Assembly: GCA_051362555.1 (NCBI GenBank) | Contig: CM120642.1 | Coordinates: 13,640,001-13,704,000, forward strand | DNA length: 64,000 bases | Direction of reading: 5' to 3' | Source: Lingula anatina | Taxonomy: Eukaryota > Animalia > Brachiopoda | Shown here: piece by piece, positions 1,143 to 51,643 of the stretch | Layout: each line of letters starts with the position of its first letter | How positions within the stretch are numbered: the stretch's first letter is position 1 | Program-made: the position numbers and the translations under genes | The notes under the pieces: generated by a model | Told to the model about the DNA's origin: nothing | What the model saw: only the letters and a program-made list of their open reading frames with translations | Databases searched by the model: none

Positions 1143-3405
1143 TGCAGCTTTGGTTTTGGCTTGAGTTGAGTACGTTAGCTGGACACGTGCACTGCGCCTG
1201 TCCATTCTGGTTGACACACCCATATGTACAGTTACTGTCCAAGCACGGGTCACTGGTGTCTTTTACTAATCAATAATGTGGAAATTATAACATTTAGCAA
1301 TAATCAAGTGATTTAAATGGTAAATATGCGGGCTTTCGTGGTAATGGTTCCTGCAATTCAGCTCATTCACTGTAAGTTAATAACATTTAAACATTATGGA
1401 TGGTATTGTGTGTTTCAATAGGGGAGACCGGGGCTAGTGGGACCACGGGGTAAGTTGTTTAAAAAAAAAAAAAACTCAAACTAAAACTAAAACTGAATTT
1501 GTTACTTTCTTTTAAAACGAAAATTTATTATTCGTTTTCATTAATTAGAAACCTGCTTCATACCATTATTAATTAATTCTTTATTAAAACAAAACAAATT
1601 TTATTGATAGATATTTTGGTTCTTGCAACACATACAACGTGACGTACGGAAACCTCAATAAATCTGCCTCGTTTGAACTATTTATTCATCAAAGACTCTC
1701 AAAAATCAATTTAATAAATTTAAAATGTATAGTATAAAAATGTATTTCAAAGCGTTTACATGGGATATTTACTTCATTTTTGTATGACGTCAACTGCGTT
1801 TTTTGTCAAATTATGAGCCATCTGGCATTATATTTGAAAAATAATGACGTTGCATGCGTAACTTAGTTCATGGGCTTATTTTGAAACCGGTTTTGTTACT
1901 CTAACTCATTCCTAGTTGGCTTTACAAGGCCAAAAGTGTCTAACTGGGCCAACTAGCCCCGGTTTGCCCTATCTCATATTTTACAAATGGCAAAATTATA
2001 CACAGAAACGAACAGTAACATGCTGATTTGTTTTCGTGGGCTAGTCGCGCCTACAGAAGGTCACACTACGACAATGATGATGCATATTTGTACACGTGGT
2101 AATGGGTAAACAGAACCATTATACCTATTGACATCATAAATACAAGTGAAAGAGAGCATGGTAGAGTGGCAGACGAATTTTAAATCACACCTGCACAGAA
2201 TGCCCTGTTACAGAGGTATTGCAGATTTGGCAGCTGGTACACGTAGTATCCTCCTGGGCACTTCTTCACCTTGGCATATTCATATTGTTGAAGATGTGAA
2301 TGATGAGAGCTGGTAGCACACGTATAGGAGGAATAGTATGTGCACAGTCGCCGCGACACTATGCCATTGTTGACCTTTGGATGGCCACCGGACAACCAGA
2401 TAGGGTAGTAAGTGCCGCAATGGTTTTGTGAAGGTGCCTAGGAGAGGGCATTTACAGTTTCAAACATTTAAAAGGCCACTTAAAATAAAATGCATTCAGT
2501 TTATAGTTAATTAAGACGCAATTTGCATGAATTTTGGCTTATACTGTATGATCCCTAAGAGGCTTAAAATGCCCAGTAGGCCCCTATACCTGTAAAAATA
2601 GTCCAAGCACACCTACTTTTATTACGGCAGTGCTGAACTGAACTAACCTGTGTGTGTGTGCGCGCGCGCGCGTGTGTGTTTGTGTGTGATGAAGAAATGC
2701 GGAAAAGTTATATATTTAAAAAGATTAGAAAAACACCACTGTACCGAATCAGGCATCTTGTTGCCAGCCCTCCCCATGAAGCGGTACCAGCCATGCCAGC
2801 GGTGAATGGTGTCACAGAAAGATTTTCGTCCGTTTATGTTCCTCCATTCGTCAGTTATGGGTTGATAGCTGTGACAAGGGTCTTCTGTTAAATCGAGACG
2901 ATTTGTTAATAGAAATCATGATCTGCTATGTAAGTTATGTTCAAAAACGATTTTGTTCAATCTACTGTATGTAGAGTAAAGAGATGTTTAATATCAAACC
3001 CTTTGGCCCATTTCAAAACGACTGAAAATATTAGGTTAAATTCCCACTGCTTAACTCGAACAGCTTACTAAATAAAGTTCCGATATTGGTCTTGAATTGG
3101 ATCGCAAAAATATAGTTAACGTGTCGAAAAATTCCATTGTTACCTTGCGGAGTTAGAAAAAAATCAGAGTCGGCTAAACAAGTGAATATGCGTTCCGTGT
3201 GTATTAATGGGCTACACCAATGTACAATTCTAAGCTAATTTTGATTTGCAACTAAGATCCAATTGTGAATTTCTCAACTGAAGAAAAAAATCATCAAGGT
3301 GAATGCAAATATCAAGGTACATATGGTTTACCTACCGCTTGCTCTAACAGGGTCACCTAAAACTCCTATGAGCAGTAATAACACCTGATACCGTGCGTCT
3401 ATCAT
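1143..3405 (-). CDS. Gene A1 (5' part): secreted uromodulin/GP2-like D8C/D10C + EGF protein; remaining exons not seen in the window
   Basis: Exons 3405-3336 (signal peptide MIDARYQVLLLLIGVLGDPVRAS), 2884-2745 ([34 protein letters not shown]), 2437-2191 ([32 protein letters not shown]) and 1265-1143 ([19 protein letters not shown]). All have GT-AG sites and compatible phases and match exons 1-4 of A2. Confidence 0.85.
1421..1969. mobile_element. MITE, TA-target Tc1/mariner-pogo-like, in A1 intron 3
   Basis: Imperfect TIRs GGGGAGACCGGGGCTAGTGG / CAACTAGCCCCGGTTTGCCC flanked by TA at 1419-1420 and 1970-1971. The paralogous A2 intron (~45175-45195, TTTCAATGTCTCA) shows the empty site. Confidence 0.8.
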
Positions 3406-3612
3406 GTTGCAGGTTATATCGTAAAATGATGACGGTAACAACGGTGTTAATATATGACGATATGCGACCCGACGTGTCAACCAATAAAATTAATAATTCA
3501 AAGTTGAAAAAAGATATTTAAATTGAACGTTTTTGTATTGGACGGCCGATGGTTAAATGTAAACTGATGTACAGTATTCAGTTAAAATAGATCATTCACC
3601 AGTTGTTTAAGG
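3406..3612. promoter_or_regulatory. Putative compact bidirectional promoter of A1/B1
   Basis: 207 bp between divergent ATGs (3405 on -, 3613 on +). CCAAT at 3481-3485 and ATTGG at 3537-3541, flanked by TATA-like AATATATGA (~3449) and TTAAATGTAAA (~3553). The same motifs and spacing recur at 46950-47153. Confidence 0.65.
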
Positions 3613-5481
3613 ATGCTGACGTTTGTTTTGCTCTTTTTATGTGTAGCCAAATTAGTAGTTGCGTTAACAAGGGGTATGTTTTTAAAAGGGATTGCACATT
3701 CTTATGTCTAAATTTAACTCAAAATGATTTTTAAAATCACCGTGATGTAGGCCTACCATTAGTGTATCTCTAAACAAAATCTGTACATTATTTGCACACC
3801 TCCTTAAAAAAGTTGGGGTTATTTTAATGCGAACAACTTTGTTAAAACTCGCTGTCTAATTGATTTCAGATAGCCCTTGCGACTATTACATTGAACTGTA
3901 TGGACCTTGGAGGAAAACCAGCTACAGCAGTTCTAGATATTATTATGACGTATATGGGATGTCAAGCGATTGGTTTCGCATCACAGGAGAAGCGGGAAAT
4001 AAGGTGGCAAACATGGTAGGAAAAGTATTCGAAGAATATCGTTTTTGTTAAAGAACGCCCATGCAAATGATTTTGGTTATTTAAGAATCTGAACAATGAT
4101 CATTGCGCATATCATAATACACTTACCTATAACCGTATACAAGTTTGCTTTTAAAACATTTCTTCCACATAACTGCAATAAATGTCGTGATTTTAACAAA
4201 AATATGTTGTATTGCTACATGTAAGTTGATTATATCTAGGATCCCAAATATTTTGGATCCTGGATTATATATACAATATTTACTTTTTTTGATACATTGT
4301 ACATTTTTGAGTGATTTAACAACAACTCTAATATAATGGTTGTTGATTAGAGTAACTATACCAATTTAAAGTTAAATTTTACAAGAATATTTTATCTGAA
4401 TTTAGTCGTACCTCCTTCCTATTCTTATTGGATAAGCCAAGCGTGTGGTAATCCAGTTTCATTCTTTTTCATTGTTCTATTACAGTATCTAAAGAAGGTA
4501 AGGAATTGACATGATTAAGAAACCCAAATAAAATACGCCTTGCGTATAGTAGTAATAAAGTTACACAATTAAACTGCAGAAGAAGATAATTATCAAGTTT
4601 CAACAAACAACATTATACTGTTTTTTTTTTCAAAGTGTCCTTCCTTCAACTACTGTGGAGCCCATTACCCGATGTGGATGCTAGGGGATCACCCTACAGC
4701 GGCTGAGGGAATAGTCAAACACACACTTTGCACCAGATCCTCCTCCAGCTACTGCTGCACCACTCCTAGTGAGAACTCCATATTTGAAGGGGACGTCATT
4801 TACGTAAAGAAATGTCCAGGTGGATATTATGTGTACAGGATACCTAATCTAAAACACTGGGGCGGCAGAGCTGTATGCTCAGGTAAGTTTAAATTATGCC
4901 AAAACAATAAGACGTACAGTGTGTACAGGTGGGAATGGGGTGAACTGACATGTGACGCGAGCTGGACGTGACACAAACTAGAGCGCGCGCGTGTGCTTGA
5001 CTAAAAGTGTTTGTGCATACCGGCATTCACATGTGATTGCAAAATTGTTTCATCAAAGGCCTGTCAGGAAGTCACTGAAACAACTTTCTCCGCAGTACAG
5101 TGATCCAAACTGAGCTATGATACGTTTTAGTAAATGTCACTGCATGCAGAAAGACATTTTCTGTTTCAGTGAAGGACAGCAGTGACCCGTGCCTGGACAG
5201 TAACTGTAAATACGGCTGTGTTAACAACAATGGGAATTTTGAGTGCACCTGTCCGCCTGATATGGTCAAGTCTGGGGATAATTGTGGTCAGTTCTGTTTA
5301 CCTTCTGTTTTTGAGGGAGTTTTAAGGGTGCATAAAACAAGCGGCTGACGTTTGATAACTCTCACGTTAGTCATGGCAATTCTGTAAAATATCTCTTTAT
5401 TCTGCTAAATGGTATTGCCTTTGGCACATAGAAGGCATTGAACCGAATCGAATTTGACTAAACTCGTGACATAAACAAAAC

Positions 5482-5516
<35 letters not shown>

Positions 5517-8228
5517 TCCGCTACCTGTGTTATCCGTCTGAAATGCTGTATTCACAAATAAATGTTTTCTCTAGTGTTACCATGCCAAGTCAACAACCCT
5601 GGCTGCAGTCATAAATGCGTCAACCAAGCTGATGGCACAACTACTTGTCGCTGTCCATTTTACCTGACTCTGGGCACAAACAACAAGACGTGCAGTGAGT
5701 AGAAAGATACAGATAAAATTACCATAGCTCATATTACACAGTGCATGATGGACTATGAAATGTACCATAATATAACCAGTGGTGTAAAATGTTAAAACAC
5801 CCCCGTTCTCATTACTGTAGCTCGACATGCAGTATTTTGTGTGCTTTGATCCATGCGTTATCACCTATTTTCAGTAAGCAAGTGTCAGACCAACAATGGC
5901 GGTTGCAGTGATTATTGTCACGAAGACGGACAAGGCGATGTCGCCTGTAGCTGTCCGGCAAATCTGGTACTCGCCACAGACAGGAAAACATGCAGTATGG
6001 ACGTTCACTTGTTTTTCAAATATCATTCTTTCACGTTGCTGTTAGTCTATCAGCATAATTTAAAATTGTGTGTTAAATTTTGTGTTAATTTTTACTAAAC
6101 AGCTCTTGTTAAATATACTTATTGTAAAACATAATTCTCAATTTAGCCACTATTTTTATTATTCTATCAATTAATTTTGAGACATGGATAAAATGTTAAA
6201 TTTTAATCTATTAAAGATTTTGATTCCTCTCTTCAGAAACCTCTTGCACTATCAACAATGGTGACTGCAGTCACGGGTGCAATGACACAGACAAAGGTGT
6301 CGTCTGCGATTGTCCTCCCAATTTAAAAATGGGGGATGATATGAAAACATGTGGTATGTCAGCTTTTTTAATCCAGTTATAAACAAGATTCACAGGTACA
6401 AATATTATAAGAGCAGATGTGGAAATAACACACACAAATGATAAAATGAAAAGTGTGTTAAAGTGAATATTTCTGAATATTCATAGGGAAAGTTTTTTGT
6501 CATACCATTGGCTTATTAACTAAATTTTCTTCTTGACTAAAATTTGCTATTTCCATGTTGAAAAACTAAATTATATTTGCTGCAGTCTGAACCATGTGTA
6601 AAATATAATCTACATTGTATTTAGACAAGGATGTGAACGAATGTCGGAACCAAACCACACCATGTTCCAAATACGCTGACTGTACCAATACGTTCGGGAG
6701 TTACACATGTACCTGCAAACTTGGATACTTTGGGGACGGCTTCCAATGTTTAGGTGGGACAAGATACGGAGGACGGTTTAGATATCAATTGGGCCATTTT
6801 AAAATTATTAATTTGATACGACATATTAATTGGATTATACGAAATCAAAGAAATATCCCGCACGCAAACGAAGTAGATACTCCAGCTCAGTAGACTACTG
6901 CAATTCTACTGCAAACATGCTTCAAATCTGCTTCGACTGCGGAGCTAATTAGCATATTTGAAACATGCTTCTATCATGCTGCAAATCTACTGCATTAATG
7001 CTCCTCCTCTGTACAACCCTATGTAATTTTTGAAGTAGAATTGCAGTAGGCTATGCTGCATTTCTACTGCAAATATGCTCCACACCACTACTGCGTTAAT
7101 GCTTCTTTGCTACTTCGATACTACTGGATTTTCGTGCGGGATATGTTAAAGGATCACATAAATGAATGAGATATTTCATTGTAAGCCTATATTTATAGAA
7201 TTATCTTGTTGAAAAAATATAATAAATTATTGTTTACAGTTCCGACTCTTATTTTTCATTTTAACATCGCAGTCATAGTTTTTCTCATTCTGTACTTCAG
7301 AGGAGAAACCCACTGATCCGACAACCAAAAGGTGAGATCATATTATTTTCAAACGGTTCTAGTATATGGCAACAATATTTAATGCTTGTATCCTTTCAAT
7401 TCTCAGTGCATTTACGTTTTCATCCGCTACAATTCTTAAGATGACCCACATACAAGATAACGATGTTTGTTTTAGCCTACTGGGATCAATAGAAGAGCTT
7501 GAATGACAAAGATCAATGTATTTTCAGGAGATGCATAAACGGTACATTAACTTATTTTAGAAATTTATTTTTTCTTTGTGTCGTCACCAGATAACATGTA
7601 AGCTGTTGTACATGTAGGTTACCAAAAACCAATATTCACTAATAATATTTACAGGTGCGAATGTCGTCTGAGGGCAGAGATAAACAGCACGGCCCCCGGT
7701 GCCATACTCTACGAGTTCCCCACCCTAATCTACGGGTTTCAGGGGCTCTGGGTGCTGGAATCAAACGCCACTGTCCCTGTCCCGATTACTGACCGCTTTC
7801 CAGATTTCTACAAAACCCGGCTGGTGCGACGTGAACTTAAGTTACCTGATCTCTACACTTGTCTACGCGTTCTTAGAGACTGTCCTTTTGATTGCGAGAG
7901 ACTTGCTAAATTAACCTTAGGAGACGAAGGACTTGCCAAGAAATTCCCGGTTAAGAACTCTGCTGGCGTCGACGTTAAGAAGTCTTTGGGACAGATTTCT
8001 TGCGAGCGTTTCGGTAAAGATTTCCTTACCCCTGGCAAACGTGTGGTGACATTCTACAGCTCCCCTCGTGAGTGCGGCAAAGAGGCGTCCACCCATGCGT
8101 TTGACCAACGGCTCTGCTGTACTAACTACAACGTTTCCGACATCGGTTCATTTAATGCTTGGAATAAGAATTGTACCGAAAGAATGAAGTTAGTTGATGT
8201 CCTGCCTAAATCTGTTGGAGCACATTGA
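3613..8228 (+). CDS. Gene B1: secreted D8C/D10C + 4 EGF + Ca-binding EGF + unassigned 10-Cys C-terminal domain (~553 aa)
   Basis: Ten GT-AG exons: 3613-3673 (signal [20 protein letters not shown]), 3870-4015, 4636-4882, 5170-5286, 5575-5694, 5875-5994, 6237-6353, 6625-6753 ([17 protein letters not shown]), 7301-7331 and 7655-8228. They sum to 1662 nt with consistent phases and an open frame to TGA. Confidence 0.9.
6857..7140. mobile_element. Short non-autonomous DNA transposon (CCC..GGG termini; CMC/EnSpm-like or piggyBac-like) in B1 intron 8
   Basis: TIRs CCCGCACGCAAA / TTTTCGTGCGGG flanked by ATAT on both sides, with internal repeated CTACTGCA motifs. It is not present in B2 intron 8. Confidence 0.65.
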
Positions 8229-8576
8229 ATTGTAGGCCTATTCCTCAGTGAAATTCGTATAGGCACTTATCGATATCTTTCGATACAAAGTTTCATTTAA
8301 TCTAGACAACAGATACGCAAGAGTGTAGTTATTCGGATACAGATTCATGTGTAATAAATTATTCAGTTCACTTGGAGTATTGACTGAGTGCTGTGTAAGG
8401 CTCATAGCGAAGTCTTTTAAACTTGGTAGGCTTACATTCTCGTGTACATTGGATACATTTATGTACATGTATCTCCAAATTATTACTTAGAAATGTAAAC
8501 AAAATTTGAAAATACATATCGAATAGCTAAAAAATATTTACAGTGTTTGACTTATTTTAGTGTAAATCTTTAGCAT

Positions 8577-8700
8577 CAGGTCAGGGCAGGTCAGGTCGCT
8601 CCCGTAGCCTCACGGCCGTTGGGGCACTTTGATGAGTTCACAATTTTCCTCCATCCCTCGCGGTCCCTCGCCAGTCTGACACAAGTCGTTGTGTTTCGCT
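8577..8700 (-). mobile_element. 5'-truncated RTE-type LINE 3' end with 10-bp target-site duplication
   Basis: TSD TCTTTAGCAT at 8567-8576 and 8701-8710. The minus strand reads ..CVRLARDREGWRKIVNSSKCP.. (A.DR..WR motif typical of RTE ORF C-termini), followed by a (CCTGA)n tail. Confidence 0.75.
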
Positions 8701-9930: not shown

Positions 9931-10640
9931 TTTTTTGTACAGACACAGATGTGTCTGTACATATAGCCATCATCTGCGTCTGTCGTCGCCGTCGTCGCCG
10001 TCGTCGCCGTGCACTCAGCGATAACACGATAAGTGGAATACCGTTTTACATTTTGTATTCAAATTTACAGAACTGATGAATATTCATAATACGCAGGTCA
10101 AGTTCGAAAATCAGCATGATCGGGCCATTTTTAGGGAAGTTATGCTGTTTTTTCTCTTTTTTTAGCATTATTTTAACACCGATAACACGATAAGTGAAAA
10201 ACCATTTTACTTTTTGGCTTGAAACTTATAAAACTGATGTATATTCATAATATGCAGGTCAAGTTCGAAAATCAGCATGATCGGGCCATTTTTAAGGAAG
10301 TTATGCTGTTTTTTCACTTTTTTCAGCATATATGCAGCACCGATAACACGATAAGTGGAAAACCATTTACTTTTTGGCTTGAAACTTACAAAACTGATGA
10401 ATATTTATAATCCGCAGGTCAAGTTCGAAAATCAGCATGATCGGGCCATTTTTAGGGAAGTTATGCTGTTTTTTCACTTTTTTCAACATAAATGCAACAC
10501 TGATAACACAATATAAGAAAAACAGATAGGCCAATTGTCATTATACTCACAGGAGTAGTCAAACTAACTAAAATGCAGGTTGAGTTCGAAAATCAGCATA
10601 ATCGGGCCTTTATTTTAGAAGTTATGCTGTTTTTTCACAT
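9931..10640. mobile_element. Helentron/HINE-like element carrying ~4 tandem ~161-bp satellite units
   Basis: T-run, then hairpin GTACAGACACA-GA-TGTGTCTGTAC (9937-9960) and a (CGT/CGC)n microsatellite. Units start ~10020, 10181, 10342 and 10502 and share GCAGGTCAAGTTCGAAAATCAGCATGATCGGGCC. Confidence 0.7.
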
Positions 10641-10899
10641 TTCCTCAGATTCAATTCTTAGGCATGTTAACAGTCTCATTATTTAACTAATAAGATACGT
10701 AAAAGTGTTTGTTTGATATTTCCTGCATCTTTACAACATTGTTAATTGACTATGTAAAAATGATTGTAAACTTGTTATCGTGTATTGTGTAATATAGTGT
10801 CAAAAATGGAAATAAACTCATATCATTGCAGTTTGTCAGATGCATTCATCCACTATGTTCAGAATCTCAGAATGGAGGAAGTTGGACATTTAACACTGT

Positions 10900-13000
10900 T
10901 CTATTGATATTTTTCCCATCTCATCAATTTTCTTAGTTGGTCATATAAAAATGGCAACAAACTGTTTATTTTGTTTTATGTTTAAAAAATGTTAAAAATG
11001 GAAATAAACCCATTTCAGAACAGTGCTGTCTTGTTTACATTTTGGTATTTTTAAGATGTGACTTTGAAGTTCCATGAGCCTGCAGACCTTTGCTAGTCAC
11101 ATTTTCTGAATATCCATGATACTAATATTTTATTATTAAAAATTGATGGTCATTATGCTGTTAAACATTATGTAATATTGCATCAAAATTTGAAGAAACC
11201 CCTATTTTGGGCACTGCTCTCATGATGACCATTAAACAAAAATCATGTCAATTACTGTTCTCAAACTTACAGGAAAGAAACATGGGTCTAAAATACAGCT
11301 TCAGTAGGCAATGCAGTCTGTTTGTTAATTTTTTCTGGCAGTTAAACAGTTTTTTGTGAAAATTTAATTTTTCACTTTTTGGCATTTTCAAGGTGTGACT
11401 TTGAAGTTTCAAGATCCTGAAGACCTTTGCTTGTCCCGTTTTCTGCATGTCCATGTTACTAATATTCTATTATTAAAAATTGATGGTCATTATACTGTTA
11501 AGCATTATGTAATGTTGCATCAAAATAGAAGAAAACACAATTTTTGGTGCTGCTGCCATGATGACCTTTATGGGAAAACCGTGTTATGACTGTCAAACCT
11601 TTAAAAAAGAAACACAGGACTAAAATGCAGAATGAGTTGGAAAAGCAGTCTAATTGGCTTCTTTTTCTGGAAGTTATACATTTGAGTGAAATATTCATTA
11701 TCTTTTTGGCATATTCATTGTGGGACTCGGCGCTCCCATGGACATGAAGCCAAATGGTGATCAAATTTTCTACATGTCCATGCTATTTATTGTCAATAAT
11801 CAAAAATTGGTGATAATTATTCTATAATTTATTATGTAATGTTACATCAAAATTGACAACAATATTTTTGCATTGCTACTGCAAACATTATGAAAAGAAA
11901 ACTGTGTTACTTATTATTATTTTTAACTTACAAGTATGATTTTTAGGATTGGCATGCAGTTCAAATTAGAAAGCCAGGGCAATTGGTTTATCATTTATTA
12001 TTGAATTTATGCAATTTTGTGTGAAATTTTCATTTTTCTCATTCTGGCACTTTCTAAGTATAAACTTGAACTCTGATGGGCCTGAAGCCTTATGCTTTTA
12101 CTTTCGTCGTTGTTACCTGTTGTGCATAATTAAAATTTGATGTTGACTGTGCAGTAAAACATAATGTATTATTGCATCAGAATTGGTAGTCTCCTATTTT
12201 GTGCATTATTGTTTTGTGCTTTTCTTAAGATGTGACTAAAAATTTGAATAGCAGCTTCATTGAAATTATATTTACCTCAGGCTCTGCCAAGGAGGTTATA
12301 TTTTCACCCCTGTTTGTCTGTCATCAACATAACTCAAAAAGTTATGGACCGATTTTGCTGAAATTTTCAGGAACTGTCAGAATTGGACCAAAGAGGACAA
12401 TGATTAGTTTTTAGTGGTGGTCTGGCTCAAAATTCAATCAATAATCAATAATAATCAACAATTGCTGCCTTGGCAGAGGTCTGCACTCTCGGTGGTTTTC
12501 TAGTTTTGTTATGTTTTCCTTTACAATTTTTTCTCAAACACTTGCATTTGTGACTTTTAACTCTCATCCGCTTGAGGCTCTGCACATTTTCTGTATTTCC
12601 ACATAAGCAATTGCATTGTTTTTTATGTCTTTAAACATTATATAATATTATTTTATGCACTGTCATCATTTTTCAAATATTGAGACTTTCATCATGTGAC
12701 TTTGGTCTCTCATGGTCCTGAAACTGTAATCTTATTGAAGGGGTGGATTGAGACCATCTTCTGGGTCTTCTGGAAGACAGGTTATTAAGTTTATATTGAC
12801 TGGTATCTATTTTTTCTGTTGGAAGACCATCAAAATGGACGATGGATCAACATAGATACTTTGGAATACTGTCAGAAAATATCTCAGGGTCCGCTCCAGT
12901 TATTGACCATGTTACCTGTTGTGCATGATTAAAATTCAGTGTTGACTGACAGTGCTATTTTAAGCATTATTTATTATTGCATCAAAATTGACAAAATGAC
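10900..13000. repeat. Degenerate ~330-bp tandem repeat, interrupted by a HINE-like copy
   Basis: Anchor ATGTAAT.TTGCATCAAAAT recurs at ~11170, 11507, 11834 and 12164, and again at ~12970. GTGACTTTGAAGTT recurs at ~11058 and ~11395. Boundaries are approximate. Confidence 0.6.
12270..12505 (-). mobile_element. Reverse copy of the HINE-like element seen at 482-1109
   Basis: GCCAAGGAGGTTATATTTTCACCCCTGTTTGTCTGTCATCAACATAACTCAAAAAG...GCCTTGGCAGAGGTCTGCACTCTC..TTTTCTAGTT is the reverse complement of that family. Confidence 0.75.
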
Positions 13001-13132
13001 CTTTTTTTATATCTTTATTTTCTGTTTTTTGTCTGTACATTTGACAGCTTTGCTGCCTTGTTAGTTTTAGAAATTGTGTACCAGTTTGCTTTACTGCAAA
13101 TTGAGAGGAACTGTGCGCGCGTTGCACATGTA

Positions 13133-39562: not shown

Positions 39563-42500
39563 TTAGCCAACGAGAAGTTCCGACAATTTCACTCCTCCAC
39601 TACACTTCCGGTTCCAGAAAGTCAATTTACCAATGCCAGACACGTCCTCCGAGTTGCAGCATAGATACGCCTCTGATGCGTACGTACTTAACTCGTCCCC
39701 GCAGTCCTCCCCGGGATTATAAAACACTACCACTCTCTTCCCTGGGGGATCAATGTAATGGTTGTACGTCTCGCACATGATCTGGCCCATGGTTTTATAA
39801 ACTTGGTCATGGGCCGAGTTCTCCACCAACAGCTTGGTCTCGAACCCGAGGGTGTCACCTACGATGATCCTTGCTAGGCGTTCGCAGTCGGTAGGGCAGC
39901 TACGGAGCACCTTGAGGCACGTGAGGAGATCCTCTCGGCTGCCAATGGCCTTGCGTCTACGCAGTGTGTTGTAGAAGTTGGGGTACTTGTCCGTGATGAC
40001 ATAAGCGGCGCTCTCGTTACCATACATGTCCGTAGCCCACAAAGTCTTGTGACCGTAGATCAAGGTCGGGAGGTCAAATAAGATAGGACCCTGAGCGGTG
40101 CTGTTGGTTTCAGCTCTAAGTCGGCATCGGCAACTGTTTGAAGAAAAGACAAAGGGACAATTTTAAATAATAGATGTTATAACTGTATCGTGAAAAGTTA
40201 CCTTTATAATATACTACCAGTCATACTGGTAGTATGGCATGTCAAGCTGGAATATCTATATAAAGGAAAACTTTCTGTTACAAGTGTACTTTTAAATCGA
40301 AATTTCTTGTTAACGAATGAAATATAGAAGCATCCAAGACCAATGTTTTTACGATGTTCTGAAAAAGGATTGATACTACTATTTAGAAAAAAATCTGATA
40401 CTCACTGTCTGGTGTTTTTGTCTGTTGGCCTTTCATCTAAAATGAATATGTTTTAACAAGTAATCTTAAATCTTAATTTTGATCTTAAAAGATGAATACT
40501 TATAAACTTAGATTTAACTGTCTAACTGCCCTCTTGATGTTCAGGATTTAACAGTGGAATTTTTTATTATGATTATGATTGGACCAGAACCCGTAAATAC
40601 AGTTAAAGTTATTATTTAAAAAAGTTTTTTCAAACTCTTATAAAATGCTATAACGTTTGAAAAGAAACACCCTTACCATGGCAATTAAACCCATCCCCAG
40701 CAAAGCCCGCGTTGCACACGCATTTAAACGAGCCGTGGGTATTGATGCACGTTGCGTGCTGCGAGCATGGGTTTCTTTTACACTCATTGGCGTCCTGGTC
40801 TGAAAATAGAAAAATGACGAATACAACCATTAAATTAACGCCAACAGTTATGCGACATTATCCACTAAAAAGCGCTGGTCCCATGCGAGCCGATGAAGGA
40901 AAATATGCACTGAATAGCGTAAATTGACCCGAAGTGACCTCCAATATATAGCACCGCTTTGTATGAAAATCAATATGAACTAAATCTTTGTTTAAACAAA
41001 CAAAACCACAGAACAAGATAACATTCGTGTGAACACATACCACAAGTAAGTTTATCATTCCCCAGCTCCCAGCTGACGGGACAACTGCAGATGGCGCCAC
41101 TGTTACTATCAGTGCAGTTGTGACTGCAACCGCCATTGTTGATGCTGCATGTGCTTACTGAAATGGAAGAAGATCAAATTTCTAAATAACTGTTATTCTA
41201 TGCATTTAAATATTTTCAAAATGTTGAAGTCAAAGGCAGGGGCGGATCGAGGATTATTTGAAGGGGGGGGGTCTGCGGATGCGAAGCCGACCTCCCACCC
41301 CTTTTGTCGTGGGGTTCATCGGGTCCCTAAAGGTTTTGGTATTTTACAAGGCGAACCGTTTTATTTGGTACGGTTTTGTACAATAAATCAGCTTGTCAAA
41401 ATTCTACTTCCAAGAGTGGAATATTAGTGTGATTTTTTCAGAAACAGAAGAAAAAGAAACTTTAAATCCGCCACTGGTCAAAGCCATGGTAAACTATAAA
41501 TAGAAAGATTCCATGCATTCTGTGGAAGTTGAACATTTTATTTTTAGTTTCGTTTTTTCAAACTAAGCTTAGTTCTTACTGCATGTTTTGTTATCTTTTG
41601 CTAACACCATGTTCGCAGGGCATCCACAGGATATTTTCCCCTTGTCGTCTGCTTTGCAGAAATGGCTGCAACCGCCATTTTGATGAAGGCATGGAGTCAC
41701 TAAATGGAATATGATAAAATACAAAAATTCAAAGTAGGTAGGCCGGTCCTGTATATGCTACATCCTGTTTTGAATTTGATCGGCTAACATAAAATATGGC
41801 ATAACATTGGATTAGGGTATCCGATATAAAAGTCAATCAAATCAACTAATTATTTCTCCCACATATTGTCAATAATGTAAATCTTGTTATGAGAAATAAA
41901 AAAGCATATTGGATTATGAGCTCATCTGTATCTCTGTTAACACCACCCAGAGACAACATAAACTTAAAGGGTCAAGCATGTAATTGTACATCGACTTTAA
42001 CCAACAATAATTGTTAATCGACTTTAACCAACACGAGCTCTTACATGTGTATGTACATGTGTATGTACAGGTACATGTAGTTAGTGTCTTACCACAAATC
42101 TTTTTATCTCCCGCCAGAACCAAACCGGATGGACAGCTACAAGTGACGGTAGCATTCACGTCACCATGGCAACTGTGGCTACACCCACCATTGTCTATGT
42201 CACATGGAGATACTGTAAATGGAGGTAATGTAATCATATTACAGGGGGGATCCAGAGATGGGTTGGGATGGATCATCAAAGTGTAAAGCAAGTGTATATT
42301 TTAATGGTATGTGACCAAATATTTTCCGGCATAGATAATATAATTCATCAGTTTACATGTACATGTACCTTGTATAAAACATGGCCTGCTTATACAGGTA
42401 TATGCTGACTATATACCGAGTCGTAATCCAATTATACTGCTTTAAAACAGAGATACCCAATAAAGTGGCCAGAGAACGTCCAGAGTGCGTGCATGTACGT

Positions 42501-44736
42501 TGTACTCGTCTTGGACGCAGGGCGTAGAAGCACAGGGATGTTTCTTACCGCATGTGTTCTTGTCCTCAGCCAGCACCAGGTGGCTAGGACACGTACACAC
42601 TGGGCTGCCTTTGTCACCAGTACAGCCGTGAGTACACGTACTGTTCAGGCAGGGGTCGCTAGTGTCGGTCACTAGAAATGTTGAATATTACATATTATAC
42701 CACGAACATAATGCCTTCATTGTTCAGGCTGTGCGAAAAATCTCTTTCCCCAAACGCTCATGCACGCGTATTTTATATACTTTCTGTAGTAATGAAATCG
42801 GACAGCTACATGTAAGCTGGCGATATGACTTATGATAGGCCTATAATGGTAGTTAATTTAGATTTATTCAAGTAAACGAAATTTCTGTCACATATATTAT
42901 TTAGTTGAATCAACATGGCGTTTTGGTATCTGTTTAAGAAAAGGATTAGAAATATTAATATGTATCTGAAATAGAGTTTAATAATATTTCAACACAGAAA
43001 AGATAAACATTCAGGAAAATTCGTCCAACTGCTGAATCACGGAGAATTGGATAGCCAGGCCCCAGTTTCACAAAAAAACTTAAGTCAGGTCCCTGGCTTA
43101 GTTGACTAGGATTTCCATGAGAGTGCTGTTATACTGCTCCTGATAGGGTAAGACTTGTCCATGTGACCATGTAACCTTGGTAATTAAGTACTTAGCCAAG
43201 AAACCTGACTTAAGTTTTTTTGTGAAACCGGGGCCAGGTGTACCTCCGCACATGTTGACACGGCAGTTATTCCACTGGAACTGAGGAAACTTGTACACAT
43301 AGTATCCGCCCGGACATTTCCGCACCATGGCGTAGTCAAATGTGGTGTAAGCGTTGTCTATACAGGTACAGCTGGAGCTGGAGGACCGAGTGCAGATCTT
43401 TCTTTTGACGATGCCATCCTTCACAGTTGGGTGACCGCCTAATAACCATCGTGTTTTACCATTTCCTCCACAATGATTCCAGGACACACACTGGAGACAG
43501 ATAGCACCATTTTTATTTACACAGTTGTAAGTGGTGTTGTGGATATAATCGTCACACTTTTTTTCCATTTTGGAAAGAAACCGCAGTTTCAACCTAATTT
43601 CTTTAGAATGTACTAGTTGTTAATTCATGTTGGTCCCAGACCACCCTACTGACAAATTATTATTGGCACTTACAAGTAAAGGCGAGTCCATCTCGGGAAC
43701 GTAGATCTAACTATTACCTCTGTGAACCGTCAGTGAATGGGATGTGCTGCTGAGTGACGAACAGGGTCAGAAATGAAAACTGGGGTTACAACTTGGCTGG
43801 TAGCCTTTGGGGCGGATCCAGGATTATTTGAAGGGGGGTCCGGTTTTTAGGAATGACAGGCCGTGGATACGAACCCGACCCCCATCCCCACCCCCTGGCG
43901 TGGGGTTCTGGTCCCGTTGAAGGGACCGAATTTTTTTTTTTTTTTTTTTTGTATTTTAGAGAGCGAACGGTGCCATTTGGTACAGTTTATAACTATGATT
44001 CAGCTGGTCAAAATTCTAATTTCGGAGGGGACCATTGGTGTGTTTTTTTTTCAGAAAACTTAGGGGGGGGGTTGTCAGGGCTCCTGTAACACCCCCTAAA
44101 TCCGCCACTATAAGGTACTTGGTATATCGTTTAAAATGCTATATTGTTATTATTGTTATTACAAAAGCCATTCGTTAACTTGCCGAGTCCGCCATCCGGT
44201 TGCCTGCGCCTTTTACAAATCTGTACCAGCCTTCAAAGCTTGTCGTATCGTCACAATAATTGTTTGAACCATATCGTGCATTTCTCCATTCTTGGTCTAG
44301 TAGTTTGTATATCTTACATGGATCCACTGAAAAAAATCATGGAGGCTAAATAATGTGGGTTTATTTTGTTACCCTGTGAAAATCAAACGTATTATATCGA
44401 TTTTCAGCTTCACTGTCTATGTACTGAAAAAAAAAACGAGAAGGTAAAACTATGCAAAACTACGCAGTAATATTTGTGTATTTTGAGCGGAAGAAAACTT
44501 TCAAAAATGAATTGTTTTCTTTTTGCATTTTAATTAGTTTGAGCATTTTAATTGCACATACCGCACGTTTTTTTATCCTTGTCTAACTCCATGGTCTCCG
44601 GGCACGCACATGTTTTGCTGCCAGCTCCTTGTGACCGACATGTATGACTACAACCGCCATTGTTACTTGAACACGGGGATACTAAAGTAAACCACACCAA
44701 ATGAATCTTTTTGTGCATTCTATAGGAAAGTCAATG

Positions 44737-44802
<66 letters not shown>

Positions 44803-45293
44803 GAGACAGAGAGAGAGACAGAGAGAGAGTTTTGGCGAATGCAATGTAGTAGTTACTGTGAAACATGAAAAAATAAGCATGCAAACAACTACTCACCGCA
44901 GCTTTGGTTTTGGTTTGAGTTGAGCACGTTAGCTGGACACGTGCACTGCGCCTGTCCATTCTGGTTGACACACCCGTATGTACAGTTACTGTCTAAGCAC
45001 GGGTCACTGGTGTCTTTTACTAATCGATAATGTGGAAATTATAACATTTAACAATAATCAAGAGATTTAAATGATTAATATTTAAAACAAATATGCAAGC
45101 TTTCATGCTTATGGTTCGTGCAAATCAACCAATTCACTGTGAGTTGATAACATGTAAATATCATGGAAGATATCGTGTGTTTCAATGTCTCATGATCAGT
45201 TTTCACCATGGGCAGATTTTTACGCAGAAACGAATAGTTAGAGGCTAATGTGTTTACGTTGGCAAGTTGCGCCTACAGAAGTACACATCACGA

Positions 45294-45357
<64 letters not shown>

Positions 45358-46949
45358 ACAGGTGGTAATGGGTAAACGGAATCATTACCTATTGACATCA
45401 TTAAAGACAAGAGAAAGAGAGCAAGACAGAGTGGCAGACAGATTTTAAACCATACCTGCACAGAATGCCCTGTAACACAAGTTTTGCAGATTTGGCAGCT
45501 GATACACATAATATCCTCCTGGGCACTTCTTAACTTTGACGTATTCATACACTTGTAAATGTGAATGATGAGAGCTGGTAGCACACGTAGATGAATAGTA
45601 TGTACACAGTCGCCGTGACACTATCCCATTGCTGACCTTTGGGTGACCACCGGACAACCAGATAGGGTAGTGAGTCCCGCAGTGGTTCTGTGATGGCGCC
45701 TAGGAGAGAACATTCACATACTTGTGAAGTGTTTTATATAAAAAAGAACACTTCAAACAAAACGTAACTGTTTTAGGATTAGTAAAAACACGATTGACAG
45801 GATCTTGATTTTATTATTCTTTTATTATTTCTTTTTTTAATATTTTATGTTCTCTTGAAGTGTATTAAGGTGCCTAGTGCTACTTTTTAAAGAGTCATGA
45901 CTTAATACAACTATATCAGTAGAGATCTAATGCGTGCACTTGTATGTAAGTGGCGTAGAAATTGAGAAAAGTGATATACATGTACACTGTAGATAAGGAG
46001 AGTTACATATTTAAGAAGATATGAAAAACACCACTGTACCGAATCAGGCATCTTGTTGCCAGCCCTCCCCATAAAGCGGTACCAGCCATGCCAGCGGTGA
46101 CTGATATCACAGAAATATTTTTGTCCGTAGTTTATGTTTCTCCATTCGTCAGTTATGGGTTGATAGTTGTGACACGGGTCATCTGCAGACGGAGGGTTTT
46201 GTTATTTAACTTATGAGGTGTTATATAATAATGTTCAAATGCAATTTAATCTACAAGCTAAATTTCGAGGTGGGCACTGAAGTCAATAACTAAAGTTTAG
46301 TTTTGATTTTCGTTTTTCACAAACGAATCTGGTAACCAGACACTAGTGTCGTTCTTTTACAAAAAAAAAAAAAAAATGAATACATAAATAAATAAATAAA
46401 ATAAAATAAACTGGAATCTGGAAATCGAGAACGTTTACGCAGGGGTTTGAATATACATGTATATACACGGATAGGGATGCACATGTAGTATAGCAGATGT
46501 AGTATAGCAGATGCATCTGCACATGTAGTATAGCAGATACTTGGCCCATTTTTAAAACGACTGAAGATTTCTTTCTTACCCTGTACATGAAGTAACCAAT
46601 TCTAAACTTCTAAATTAATTAGGATGTTGGTTTTAGGAAAATTCTCTTACAATTGAAACACATGAAATGTATTTGGCATTTTAAAATAGGCCACTGTCAG
46701 CAACGTTTGAAAAAATAGTCAATACAAGGGTATGAGATATAGGCTTAATCCGAATATGCGTTATGAGAAAATGTAAAATCAATAGGCTAATATTCTTAGC
46801 TATTACAACTGAGATCCAGTTGTGAACCCCTTTCTCCGTTGAATACGAAAACGGTAATCTAGGTATTTAATTCACCTACCGTTTGCTCTTACAGTCGCCC
46901 CTAAAACCCCCGTGAGCAGCAATAATAACTGATAGCTTGCGTCTTTCAT
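39563..46949 (-). CDS. Gene A2: secreted protein, D8C-EGF-EGF-D10C-4xEGF-cbEGF-unassigned 10-Cys C-terminal domain (~764 aa)
   Basis: 14 exons: 46949-46880, 46182-46040, 45699-45456, 45019-44897, 44681-44562, 44326-44184 (GC donor), 43490-43244, 42671-42549, 42212-42093, 41699-41580, 41157-41041, 40799-40677, 40436-40406 and 40133-39563. They sum to 2295 nt with consistent phases. Confidence 0.88.
41237..41476. mobile_element. hAT-type MITE in A2 intron 10
   Basis: Termini CAGGGGCGGAT / ATCCGCCACTG, with an 8-bp TSD GTCAAAGG (41229-41236) / GTCAAAGC (41477-41484), one mismatch. Confidence 0.75.
43059..43234. mobile_element. PIF/Harbinger-like MITE in A2 intron 7
   Basis: ~31-bp TIRs GCCCCAGTTTCACAAAAAAACTTAAGTCAGG / CCTGACTTAAGTTTTTTTGTGAAACCGGGGC with a 3-bp CAG TSD (43056-43058, 43235-43237). 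Confidence 0.8.
43808..44109. mobile_element. MITE related to the 41237-41476 element, in A2 intron 6
   Basis: GGGGCGGATCCAGGATTATTTGAAGGGGGG ... CCCCTAAATCCGCCACT shares both ends with the 41237 copy. No TSD recovered. Confidence 0.65.
45296..45352. repeat. (TA)n microsatellite
   Basis: Directly visible; absent at the paralogous position in A1 intron 3 (~2080). Confidence 0.95.
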
Positions 46950-47153
46950 GATGCGGGTCATATCGTGGAATGTTAACGGTAACTACGGTGTCAATATATG
47001 ACGGTGCACGGGTCGAAGTATCAACCAATAGAATGAAGATTTTAAAAAAGGAGAATAGGGGTTGCAAATGAGAGGCTCCTATTGGACGCAGCGGTTAAAT
47101 ATAAAGTGGTCTTTAGAGTTCAGTTGTAAATTATCATTCACCAATTTATTAGG
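46950..47153. promoter_or_regulatory. Putative compact bidirectional promoter of A2/B2
   Basis: 204 bp between divergent ATGs (46949 on -, 47154 on +). CCAAT at 47025-47029 and ATTGG at 47081-47085 (56-bp offset, same as copy 1), with flanking AATATATGA and TTAAATATAAAG. Confidence 0.65.
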
Positions 47154-48165
47154 ATGCTTACGATTGTTCCACTGTTTTTGTGTGTAGCCAAACTGGTAGT
47201 GGCATTAACAGGGAGTATGTTTTGCACGGGAAAGCAAAGACTTATGTCGAATATTGTCCTAAATTTAATTTTTTTAAATAACCATGCATGTATGTATGCA
47301 CTTTTTATAATCTGCCAACAATATTCACCTTAAACCAAGTATGTAAATTATTTGCACACCATAGTTCCATAGCCTTGCTTTGTTCATCGAAACAGATTTG
47401 CTTAATGCATGTTCTTATTTATTTTATTCAGGTGACCCTTGCCACGATTATATTGAACTGTTTGAACCTTGGAGGAAAAGCAGCTACAGCAGCTCTAGAT
47501 ATTTTTATGAGGAGTATGGGATGACAAACGATTGGTTTCGTATCACAGGAGAAGCGGGAAATAAGGTGGCAAACACGGTACGGATTTTCTCATCAAAATG
47601 TTTTGGTACCTGTTCTGTGCTAATTGGTTAAAACAGGTGTAAAGTACATGGTCTGGTACACGTAGTTAAATGTGTTATTCGTATGCTAGCTTTCAGCGGC
47701 TCGTGCGGCAGCTGGTATGTACTTCCTACAAGGAGGGAACAATATCTAAAACCAGTCTAAATCAGCCTCAAATAAAATTTCACGCACGGTGTTTATTAAT
47801 TTTAATCTATTGTAAACCGCACTGAGACGCTGTGGAGTGTGGTATATGTACAATGACCAAACTTTATTTAACTTTTACTTCACGGCATCGTTTATATAGT
47901 ATTCATAGTATTTATTTATTAATGTTTATGTCAGCCGGGTTGGACAAACTTTTTAAAATGCATTCAATAGTTACATAAAAGTAATTGATACTTTTTCTCT
48001 TTATCAATGCATCTTTTTATCGAACCTTATCTGTTTTATTTTAAAATGTATGCAATAATAGTAATATTAATACTTATTATAATCATTATTATTATCATTA
48101 TTATTTTACATTATTTATTGCACACATTTAAAAATAAAACAGATAAGGTGTGGTAATGATTAAAA

Positions 48166-48197
<32 letters not shown>

Positions 48198-48482
48198 AGT
48201 GTCCTTCCCTCTACTATTGCGGTACCCATTACCCTATGTGGATGCTTGGAGATCACCCTACAGCGGCTGAAGGAATTGTCAAACACACACTTTGCACCAG
48301 ATCCTCCTCCAGCTACTGCTGCACCACTCCCAGTGAGAGCTCTACTTTTAAGGGAGACGTCATCTACGTGAAGAAATGTCCTGGTGGATATTATGTGTAC
48401 AGGATACCTAATCTAAAACACTGGAGTAGCAGGGCTGTTTGTTCAAGTAAGTGCAACATTTTAAATTCAGATTGTGTGCACG

Positions 48483-48518
<36 letters not shown>

Positions 48519-51500
48519 TGTGTGTGTGTGGCGTCTTCATGCCTATGGAATTAGAGTGCATACTTGCGTTCCTTTGTAATAACCTACATGAAATTGAAAT
48601 AACTTTATGCTTTGCTTCGTCAAATAAAAAAAAAAAAAGAAAAAAGAAAAAATCACCAAAAAACCTTCAGTGCAAAACAGTTCTCCGAATTGAGTTTTGA
48701 ACTGTTTTAGGAAATGTCATTACAGATATATTTTGTGTTAACAGCAAAGGACAGCAGTGACCCGTGCCTGGACAGTAACTGTACATACGGCTGTGTTAAC
48801 AACAATGGGAAGTTTGAGTGCACCTGTCCACCTGATATGGTCAAGTCTGGGGACAACTGTGGTCAGTTTTCTTGGACTCTTGTTATTTTGTGTGTTGGGT
48901 TATGAAGGGTAGACAAAACAAATGTCCGACCTTTCATCACTCAAACATTTTCAAGGTTAATTTAAGAAAATATCTATCTTTGTCTCTTAGCAATTGCTAC
49001 TGCTTCATTGGGGTTTCCCTGGCTCAAAATTTTTGACTCAGTGGCTTTTGTAACCTCCCCTTTAAAATCAAAATTAAGGAAAAAATGGCGAAATGATTTT
49101 AAGTTTCATCCATTTTATCTTAGAAATGCTCATTAATTGGTAATCTTCAAACATCGCTTCCTTCGCTATCTACCTGATATACATTTTGCTAATACTTGTA
49201 TAAATATCAAAGATTATATTATATTATATTATATTATATTATATTATATTATATTATATTATATTATATCTCAATCATCCAGTGCTACCATGCCAAGTCA
49301 ACAACCCTGGCTGCAGCCATGAATGCGTCAACCAAGCTGATGGCACAACTACTTGTCGCTGTCCATTTTACCTGACTCTGGGCGCAGACAATAAGACGTG
49401 CAGTGAGTAGAAAGGTTTTGAAATGTTACATGATGTACGCAGAGCGGTTGGTGTTTTTAGGCTTTGGACTAATGAAAAATCTTATTCGCCTTAGTTCAGG
49501 TTAACTCCATCAACGATACGACAGCGATCTCTTACAGCACCCTTTAATTGAAGTAAACAAAGCTTTTATCCAACTGCAATACATTTTTTATTATGGTTTA
49601 ACTTTTTGTATTATCTGTATTCTAACCTTTCTCATCATGGAAATTAGATATTCTATCGACATAAATATGATAATGGATTATTTATTTTTTCTATTCTATT
49701 CTACCACATGTACCATAATGAAGCTTATATGGTAAAGGGCAAAGAAGTATTATGCGCGCCCAGAGTATTTAAAATCACCTTAATACAAGTATTCCACGTA
49801 TTTCCAGTAAGCAAGTGTCAGACCAACAATGGCGGTTGCAGTGATTATTGTCACGAAGACGGACAAGGCGATGTCGCCTGTAGTTGTCCTGCAAATCTGG
49901 TACTCGCCAGCGACAGGAAAACTTGTAGTATGGATGCTCAAATATAATATGGAACGCTGAAAAGTTTTTATTAATAACAAATTTGCAGCATATATACAAT
50001 GTGCATGTACATGAAAGTAGTTTGTTGAAACGGGGTTTGAATGTATCTTCACTGTTCATTTTATAAAACGCACAAAATCTCAGTTCATCAATAATCTTAT
50101 GTTACGATTTTTCATTTGAAGGTAGACAAGGTGTTATATTTGAGTCTACCAAGCATTATGATTACTTTCTACAGAAACTTCATGCACCATCAACAATGGC
50201 GACTGCAGTCACGTTTGCAATAACACGGACAGGGGTGTCGTCTGCGGTTGTCCTCCAAATTTAGAAATGGGAGATGATGGGAAAACTTGTGGTACGTCAA
50301 CGTCTTTGATTTACAAGCAATAAACCTGTTTTTAGTAGGAGTTACCATACAATTTGATTTTTAGTAATGAACGAAAAAGAATCGGAAGCCGGGGGATATC
50401 ACCATTAAAATTCCTCATATAAATTACCGGCCATCATATATTTTGTTATGCTCTTTCTTAGCTGAAGAAAAAAATGATGCAATCTGTTTTCTTAAAGTAA
50501 ACACAAAATGTTATTTCCACACATTTAGACAAGGATGTTAATGAATGTCGAAGTCAAACCCCGCCATGTTCCCAATATGCTGACTGTACCAATACATTCG
50601 GAAGTTACACTTGTACCTGCAAACTCGGCTACTTTGGGGATGGCCTCCAATGTTTAGGTAGGTTAGTTTTAAATATCACTTGGTCTTTGAAAAAATTTAA
50701 TTTAAATCTGTTAAGAACCATATACGTATATCAGATAGCAAGTAACACATGTAGAATTAATATATATTTTTCATGGAAATGCCATCCAAAATAAAATGCA
50801 CGCATAGTATACATGTATATTAAAACGACTTCTAAAAAGATCTAAAGTTCAATCTCCTCGGTGCATTTAGGGGTGGTTTTATATTATACTCTTGTCTTTT
50901 ACTTCAGAGGAGAAAGCCACCGATCCTAGCACGAAAAGGTTAGTGTTGCTATAATATATCTATAAATCGTTATGTTTTTGAATGTGCATATCATGTATTT
51001 ATAATGTCTGTGCTACAAATGTTAAAGATGAAGTGAAATGGTCATAAAACAGTACATCAAAATGAAATTCATAAATATTATTTACAGGTGCGAATGTCGT
51101 CTGAGGGCAGAAATAAACAGCACTTCTCCCGGCGCTATACTTTACGAGTTCCCCACCCTCATCTACGGGTTTAAAGGGGTCTGGGTGCTGGAGCGAAACG
51201 CCACAGTCCCTGTCCCGGTTACTGATCGTTTCCCAGATTTCTACAAAACCCGGCTGGTGCGACGTGAACTAAAGTTACCCGATCTTTATACCTGTCTACG
51301 CGTTCTTAGAGACTGTCCCTTTGATTGCGAGAGACTGGCTAAGATAACCTTAGGCGACGAGGGGATTGCCAAGAAATTTCCGGTTAAGAACTCTGCTGGC
51401 GTCGACGTTAGGAAGTCTTTGGGACAGATTTCTTGTGAGCGTTTCGGTAAAGATTTCCTTACCCCTGGCAAACGTGTGGTGACATTCTACAACCCTCCTC

Positions 51501-51643
51501 GTGAATGCGGCAAAGAGGCGTCCACCCACGCGTTTGACCAGCGTCTCTGTTGCTCAAACTATGACATTTCCGGCATTGGTTCTTTTAATGCCTGGAATCA
51601 GAAATGCACCAAAGGAATGACTCTTACCGATGTTTTTGGTTAG
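47154..51643 (+). CDS. Gene B2: paralog of B1 (~547 aa)
   Basis: Exons 47154-47214, 47432-47577, 48200-48446, 48745-48861, 49283-49402, 49808-49927, 50175-50291, 50529-50657, 50908-50938 and 51088-51643. Exons 1-9 have the same sizes as in B1; 1644 nt in frame to TAG. Confidence 0.9.
49215..49268. repeat. (ATATT)n pentanucleotide repeat
   Basis: Directly visible just upstream of the B2 exon 5 acceptor. Confidence 0.9.

What the first reader, a model, noticed from the sequence alone, without database searches (positions are those of the whole stretch)
1143..51643. Duplicated head-to-head A/B gene pair of uromodulin-like secreted proteins: candidate co-expressed two-subunit extracellular system
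Seen: genes A (-) and B (+) start ~205 bp apart, and the whole pair recurs ~43.5 kb away (ATGs 3405/3613 and 46949/47154). A and B are themselves old paralogs: A2 exons 6-14 (143,247,123,120,120,117,123,31,571 nt) parallel B1 exons 2-10 (146,247,117,120,120,117,129,31,574). This implies an inverted duplication, then duplication of the pair as a unit. Established: collagen IV chain genes are a precedent for head-to-head paralogs encoding heteromer subunits, and the D10C module of GP2/uromodulin acts as a bacterial-adhesin decoy. Inference: A and B are stoichiometrically co-expressed partners of a secreted matrix, mucus or defence complex. I know of no description of this arrangement, but I cannot search.
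Basis: partly seen in the sequence, partly recalled or inferred. Interest (0 to 1): 0.85.

Follow-up and report, generated by a model that had tools for sequence, protein, structure and literature searches.

The report
Back-to-back secreted pair, unnamed anchor domain
In a lamp shell (Lingula), two old sister genes for predicted secreted proteins sit back to back about 205 bases apart and the pair was duplicated as a unit; both end in a cysteine-rich domain with no Pfam or solved-structure match that likely is a relative of an arthropod cuticle protein and would anchor them to a chitin-containing matrix.

Summary
Observation confirmed, with one gap. A (-) and B (+) start 207 and 204 bases apart in two pairs 43.5 kb apart; all exon sizes match. 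Pair copies are 88-89% identical, dS about 0.4, dN/dS 0.15; A and B are 46% identical. Only four exons of A1 lie in the window. Closest relatives are Lingula. The spacer keeps mirror CCAAT boxes at the same positions in both pairs, so a shared promoter is likely. 'Uromodulin-like' holds for the D10C module only: no ZP domain, no N-glycan site in 5 of 5 D10C modules, so the FimH-decoy idea fails. The heteromer is untested. The more novel part is the C-terminal 185-residue, ten-cysteine module: no Pfam or PDB match, confident model, found in 18 representatives (5 Lingula, 11 Owenia, 2 unnamed) fused behind unrelated secreted domains. Its cysteine spacing and motifs match, by eye only, crustacean larval factor/FCP3C, reported to bind chitosan. 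Best reading: co-expressed matrix proteins tethered by this module. The scan's earlier notes hold no report of this family.

The parts
1143..3405 (-). Gene A1, exons 1-4 only (3405-3336, 2884-2745, 2437-2191, 1265-1143): signal-peptide-like leader, 8-Cys D10C, one EGF; rest outside the window or lost
   Evidence: dN/dS 0.148 vs A2
3406..3612 (.). Spacer 1, likely bidirectional promoter: TATA-like 3450-3455, CCAAT 3481-3485, inverted CCAAT 3537-3541
3613..8228 (+). Gene B1, 10 exons, 553 aa: leader, 8-Cys D10C (exons 2-3), five EGF (exons 4-8, last Ca-binding type), linker, C-terminal module
   Evidence: 92% to XP_013389243 without gaps
7655..8228 (+). B1 last exon: whole ten-cysteine C-terminal module (190 aa)
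39563..46949 (-). Gene A2, 14 exons, 764 aa: leader, D10C (8 Cys), 2 EGF, D10C (10 Cys), 5 EGF, linker, C-terminal module
   Evidence: same layout in P0004, 51% over 697 columns
39563..40133 (-). A2 last exon: ten-cysteine C-terminal module (189 aa), modelled at pLDDT 84, basic loop at residues 58-61
46950..47153 (.). Spacer 2: TATA-like 46994-46999, CCAAT 47025-47029, inverted CCAAT 47081-47085, TATAAA 47100-47105
47154..51643 (+). Gene B2, 10 exons, 547 aa, same layout as B1; module in exon 51088-51643

Best explanation
Two old paralogs, A and B, sit head to head on a 205-base spacer that likely works as one bidirectional promoter, and the pair was copied as a unit; each encodes a predicted secreted D10C-EGF arm ending in a ten-cysteine module that is likely related to arthropod Clf/FCP3C and would tether the protein to a chitin-containing extracellular matrix. 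Shown: arrangement, exon homology, purifying selection, domain layout, absence of ZP, membrane helix and D10C glycan sites, spread of the module. Inferred: joint transcription from the spacer, secretion, kinship with Clf (about 0.7), matrix or chitin binding (about 0.45 if kin), display of D10C as a protein-binding head. A and B would be co-deployed variants in one matrix, not necessarily subunits.
For: Spacer: 70% identity between pairs versus 53% shuffled; CCAAT at +76 and inverted CCAAT at +132 in both spacers, inside 10- and 9-nt identical blocks; mirror placement in 177 of 20000 shuffles and 3 of 151 real 207-nt windows. dN/dS 0.148 (A, 192 codons) and 0.146 (B, 547 codons), module 0.13. 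Module: in one exon; always at the C-terminus behind EGF, SRCR, IgGFc-binding, CUB, olfactomedin, C-lectin, LDL-receptor propeller or esterase parts in the 18 representatives, the pattern of a portable tag. Spacing between its cysteines 1/64-75/6/3/30-36/22-23/13-16/0/16-18 with invariant GQxxC against 1/23/5-6/3/26-27/22-23/15/0/7 counted by eye in SvClf1, 4 and 5 of the PMC6391395 supplement, which mostly share GQxxC and LCC. ESM Atlas on the Owenia module gave as top three hits unnamed 119-159 aa arthropod clusters (0.91 with 206 of 256 features; 0.83; 0.83). Recombinant Clf co-precipitated with chitosan. Trace RNA in run X1 lies on A2 and B2 exons with opposite mate strands.
Against: The Clf link is by eye and by a pattern written after seeing both sets; no profile comparison was possible. 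The Atlas query with the A2 module itself hit bacterial DUF3800 (0.93, 162 features) and not arthropods, and the arthropod clusters are unnamed. Two spacings differ widely from Clf. Clf is acidic and was tested on polycationic chitosan, so binding may be electrostatic; B modules are basic (+6, +7). None of the 8 RefSeq family accessions or prefixes searched, nor 2 peptides, is in the 54-protein Lingula shell proteome files. Spacer identity (0.70) equals the neutral expectation from dS (0.69), so only the blocks, and the contrast with most introns, argue for selection. RNA: about 4 reads on A2 (2 starts, at least 5 further differences) and about 2 on B2 in 1 of 4 runs, no splice joints.
Confidence: 0.4

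Rival explanations
1. A and B are subunits of one heteromer that assembles through the C-terminal modules, as collagen IV chains do through NC1, and the shared promoter keeps their ratio.
For: Head-to-head paralogs with a terminal cysteine-rich domain parallel COL4A1/COL4A2 (PMC6819499 passages). Pair copied whole, equal constraint on both. A-type (P0004) and B-type (P0003) proteins both exist in unnamed, more distant sources. A and B lost different D10C disulfides, a sign of lasting specialisation.
Against: All ten module cysteines are kept in A and B alike, with no odd one for an inter-chain bond. The module occurs on many unrelated proteins, and a third B-type gene exists in L. anatina (P0002, 68%). 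Divergent neighbours are usually co-expressed without being subunits (84.8% correlated in fly; PMC2670823 passages).
Confidence: 0.2
2. The module is a lineage-specific self-association or sorting domain unrelated to chitin; the basic loop is a convertase site that triggers assembly, loosely replacing the ZP module of uromodulin.
For: A dibasic or polybasic run sits in the same insert in 13 of 13 brachiopod-type modules, in the one low-confidence loop of the model (58-64). It occupies the place of ZP in D10C-EGF proteins.
Against: The insert is absent from the 15 Owenia modules. No ZP-like fold match. Several sites are not full RxxR.
Confidence: 0.2
3. The arrangement is only a by-product of local duplication in a duplication-rich region; A1 is now truncated, and nothing couples A and B beyond a shared promoter.
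For: Four tandem PAN-lectin genes lie between the pairs; A1 exons 5-14 are not in the window; no full A-type RefSeq model came up among 14 hits.
Against: A1 exons show dN/dS 0.148 (95% 0.08-0.26) and intact splice sites; about 620 nt of repeats (482-1104) could have lengthened intron 4 past the window edge. The 205-nt spacer length has been kept over dS 0.4.
Confidence: 0.15
4. A and B are glycan decoys for bacterial FimH-type adhesins, like GP2 and uromodulin.
For: D8C_UMOD matches above cut-off in 3 of 3 exons tested; UMOD and GP2 are the top PDB hits; lectin genes are neighbours.
Against: No N-glycosylation sequon in any of 5 D10C modules; the UMOD N275 position is Q, R or K and the GP2 N65 site is absent. 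No ZP filament domain.
Confidence: 0.05

Closest known systems
Uromodulin / GP2 / OIT3 D10C proteins (Pfam PF23283)
   Same: Leader, D10C module, EGF repeats; cysteines lost in A and B go in pairs that fit the GP2 disulfide map (B lacks C2 and C9; first A module lacks C3 and one of C6/C7).
   Different: No ZP module, no hydrophobic C-terminal anchor, no decoy glycan site; a different C-terminal module; head-to-head paralogs.
Crustacean larval factor (Clf) / insect follicle cell protein 3C (PMC6391395)
   Same: Ten cysteines in the same order, CxC start, C-x5/6-C-x3-C, GQxxC, 22-23 residues to the next C, LCC (by eye).
   Different: Clf is a free 100-200 aa acidic protein; here a fused terminal module with two long inserts, basic in B. 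The paper found no match in annelid or mollusc transcript sets (brachiopods are not in its list).
COL4A1/COL4A2 head-to-head pair
   Same: Divergent paralogs, short shared promoter with CCAAT site, terminal cysteine-rich domain, pair duplicated.
   Different: No collagen helix; heteromer not shown; promoter AT-rich with TATA-like boxes.
Lingula anatina LOC106157972 (XP_013389243) and XP_013396176-8
   Same: 92% to B1 and 68% to B1/B2; same layout.
   Different: Annotated only as uncharacterized or fibulin/fibrillin/SCUBE-like; module not recognised.

Membership tests
Uromodulin/GP2 family | D8C/D10C module | tested here: met
   PF23283 45-61 bits, cut-off 27; UMOD E 3.5e-22; 8 or 10 Cys
Uromodulin/GP2 family | C-terminal ZP module | tested here: not met
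   Last exon has no Pfam match; UMOD/GP2 match covers only residues 27-198 of P0023; model is mixed alpha/beta
Uromodulin/GP2 family | High-mannose N-glycan site (UMOD N275 / GP2 N65) for FimH | tested here: not met
   No sequon in 5 of 5 D10C modules
Uromodulin/GP2 family | C-terminal GPI/hydrophobic anchor | tested here: not met
   Highest 19-residue hydropathy after residue 25 is 0.95-1.17 in A2, B1, B2; crude test
Clf/FCP3C domain | Ten conserved cysteines in the family order and spacing | tested here: met
   12 of 13 brachiopod-type modules have 10 Cys (P0002 is cut short); core pattern in 26 of 28 modules, 0 of 56000 shuffles, 0 of 14 other proteins; pattern written after the fact
Clf/FCP3C domain | Significant sequence-profile or structural homology | tested here: inconclusive
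   No Pfam model matched; Atlas hits are unnamed arthropod clusters but DUF3800 for the A2 module; no direct alignment run
Clf/FCP3C domain | Free small secreted protein, acidic (Clf) | tested here: not met
   Fused terminal module; net charge -1 (A2), +6/+7 (B); Owenia modules 0 to -14
Clf/FCP3C domain | Chitosan binding, inhibition of calcite growth | not testable with these tools
   needs recombinant protein
Collagen IV-type head-to-head heteromer genes | Divergent paralogs on a short shared promoter | tested here: met
   (sequence only; start sites not mapped)
Collagen IV-type head-to-head heteromer genes | Co-expression | tested here: inconclusive
   trace reads in 1 of 4 runs
Collagen IV-type head-to-head heteromer genes | Products form a heteromer | not testable with these tools
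   see Tried and rejected

The most novel reading that the evidence does not exclude
Lingula and the annelid Owenia carry an undescribed, probably new-fold, portable C-terminal module, the lophotrochozoan counterpart of the arthropod Clf/FCP3C domain, that pins lectins, IgGFc-binding, olfactomedin, esterase and D10C heads to chitinous matrices; in Lingula an A/B pair of such proteins is co-transcribed from one promoter, cut at a conserved basic loop, and assembles as a two-chain unit.
Probability: 0.15. Interest if true: 0.8.

Novelty: new variant of a known kind. Interest (0 to 1): 0.5.

Why it matters
Head-to-head paralogs and tandem copies are ordinary. The module is not: it has no family model, no solved relative and no fold match, yet tags many kinds of secreted protein in two phyla. 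If it is the Clf/FCP3C domain, a family described as essentially arthropod reaches back to the protostome ancestor, and a small testable matrix-anchoring tag becomes available for work on chitin-mineral skeletons, chaetae and tubes. It also shows D10C used without ZP and without the decoy glycan, which bears on what D10C did before uromodulin.

Tried and rejected
Complex prediction of A2 and B2 modules: no answer (score 0.00 twice, alignments not used, partner fold uncertain); no evidence either way. Fold searches of the module model: Foldseek PDB 0 hits at E 0.001, BFVD 0, VIA-align best Z 3.0 among 48161 chains; absence does not prove a new fold. PDB sequence searches empty or E 0.7. Search for longer relatives of the A2 module: 0 of 333 candidates, although such proteins exist, so that tool is insensitive here. 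DUF3800 Atlas hit rejected: bacterial, 162 features, no sequence support. Sequencing runs: no RNA holder listed; 4 of 9 same-label runs laid on 35000-52500 gave mostly repeat reads; pair 1 has no RNA data. Sequence symmetry of the spacer as an inverted repeat is not above chance (286 and 311 of 500 shuffles reach it). A-B gene conversion at exon 4 considered: 66-68% amino-acid identity but 31-44% of synonymous codons differ, so not shown. Haplotig artefact rejected: introns largely unalignable, dS 0.4. Synteny in relatives could not be tested. Papers: 'Lingula + uromodulin' 0; five-term head-to-head/heterodimer search 0; 'D8C + invertebrate' 1 listed, on human UMOD; 'Lingula + head-to-head' 1, on DNases; 'crustacean larval factor' 2. 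The Luo 2015 supplement was listed but not read; its shell proteome uses other gene ids and may bear on localisation.
Full report
Observation. Self-comparison shows collinear same-strand blocks between 1134-8187 and 44888-51620. Exon models built from coordinates give B1 (553 aa), B2 (547 aa), A2 (764 aa) without internal stops, and four exons of A1. B1/B2 are 88.4% and A1/A2 88.7% identical; A2 residues 236-762 match B at 46.5%. RefSeq XP_013389243 of Lingula anatina aligns to B1 over all 553 residues at 92% and shares its C-terminal extension, so the organism is a Lingula and the model is independently supported. A1 stops in the window at an intact donor; nothing like exons 5-14 lies in 1-1142 apart from an 81-nt inverted match next to a CA repeat, and no genome was held. 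Whether A1 is whole is open.

History. dS is 0.37 for A and 0.42 for B, dN/dS 0.148 (0.08-0.26) and 0.146 (0.11-0.20): both genes were copied at about the same time and stayed under purifying selection. A carries an extra D10C-EGF-EGF block, also seen in an unnamed protein P0004 (51% to A2); P0003 groups with the B modules (87/96), while A2 and P0004 are unresolved at the base. So A and B types are old, the pair duplication recent. A third B-type gene exists in L. anatina (P0002, 68%). Linkage in relatives could not be tested.

Spacer. The two spacers align at 70% (shuffled 53%); 9 identical runs of 7-11 nt include a TATA-like box at +45, CCAAT at +76 and inverted CCAAT at +132 in both, with TATAAA at +151 in pair 2 only. 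Mirror boxes arise in 177 of 20000 shuffles and 3 of 151 real windows. Overall identity equals the neutral expectation (0.69), and the spacer is not a significant inverted repeat, so the case rests on the blocks. A shared promoter is likely but not shown. RNA: none of 9 listed runs is shown to hold the stretch; of 4 laid on 35000-52500 only X1 has exon reads, about 4 on the A2 last exon and about 2 on B2 exons 4-5, on opposite mate strands as a stranded library would give for a divergent pair; no joints. Pair 1 has no RNA data.

Proteins. Leader, D10C (PF23283), EGF repeats, a 10-residue linker exon and a single-exon terminal module. UMOD and GP2 match only the D10C-EGF part. No ZP, no membrane segment. 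PMC8930769 (passages) shows the decoy depends on a glycan at UMOD N275 or GP2 N65; the aligned positions here carry no sequon, and none of the five D10C modules has any. B lacks the C2-C9 pair and the first A module lacks C3 and one of C6/C7, fitting that paper's disulfide map.

Terminal module. No Pfam family, no PDB sequence match. Among 1.84 billion representatives 18 match: 5 Lingula, 11 Owenia fusiformis, 2 unnamed. It is C-terminal in all, behind EGF, SRCR, IgGFc-binding, CUB, olfactomedin, C-lectin, LDL-receptor repeats or an esterase. AlphaFold2 on 23 sequences gives pLDDT 84, pTM 0.80, a mixed alpha/beta fold with no match in PDB or BFVD (best Z 3.0). The Atlas pointed the Owenia module to small unnamed arthropod proteins, but the A2 module to bacterial DUF3800. 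A recalled resemblance to FCP3C led to PMC6391395 (main text parts 1-4 of 5, supplement parts 1 and 11 of 11 read), which defines the ten-cysteine Clf/FCP3 domain, reports chitosan co-precipitation and altered calcite growth for one Clf, and found no match in annelid or mollusc sets. Cysteine spacing counted by eye in three Clfs (1/23/5-6/3/26-27/22-23/15/0/7) matches the module (1/64-75/6/3/30-36/22-23/13-16/0/16-18) at six of nine intervals closely, with shared GQxxC and LCC; a core pattern hits 26 of 28 modules, 0 of 56000 shuffles and 0 of 14 other proteins, but was written after the fact. No direct alignment was possible. All 13 brachiopod-type modules have a basic run in an insert that Owenia lacks, at the disordered loop of the model.

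Mechanism. Most likely A and B are co-transcribed secreted proteins whose terminal module tethers them in an extracellular, perhaps chitinous, matrix while EGF stalks present D10C heads (0.4). Against: the family was not found in the 54-protein shell proteome of PMC13425148 (passages, Data S1 and term searches of the supplement); Clf binding may be electrostatic and B is basic. A heteromer as in collagen IV (PMC6819499 passages) remains possible (0.2) but nothing here requires it; divergent pairs are commonly co-expressed, and only 4.3% of fly pairs are duplicates (PMC2670823 passages). PMC4595640 (passages) notes frequent EGF shuffling and tandem duplication in Lingula and does not mention uromodulin.

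Verdict. Interest 0.5.

Noticed in passing
window 17150-37500, - strand: Four tandem copies of a predicted secreted PAN plus C-type-lectin gene (first exons near 19110, 25176, 30467, 37500); three exons per copy found without stops, 65-94% identical to the last copy. PAN and lectin Pfam scores are below cut-off on single exons.
   Followed up: partly
window 21217-21681, - strand: Tc1/mariner-type DDE_3 transposase fragment (31.7 bits) inserted in the lectin array.
   Followed up: partly
window 44184 (A2 intron 6): GC-AG intron at the position where the paralogous introns use GT.
   Followed up: no
window 39950-39961 (-) and matching sites in B1, B2: Basic run in a disordered loop of the module, kept in 13 of 13 brachiopod-type copies: possible convertase site inside a disulfide-locked domain.
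   Followed up: partly
window 482-1104 and 12282-12506: Three nested copies of a dispersed repeat in A1 intron 4, with an inverted copy at 12.3-12.5 kb.
   Followed up: no
window 41236-41272, 43055-43238, 43809-44090: Small repeats in A2 introns (one an inverted pair) attract nearly all RNA reads from other loci; likely MITE-like elements.
   Followed up: no
window 1143-1265 vs 5170-5286 and 48745-48861: A exon 4 and B exon 4 are more alike (66-68% aa, about 80% nt over 90 bases) than other A-B exon pairs; old conversion possible, not shown.
   Followed up: partly
P0009-P0019, P0036-P0039 (Owenia fusiformis): At least 15 Owenia proteins of unrelated kinds end in the same module, shorter, mostly acidic and with 1 or 3 extra cysteines.
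   Followed up: partly
window 10016-11882: Tandem repeats with periods of about 161 and 337 nt between B1 and the lectin array.
   Followed up: no
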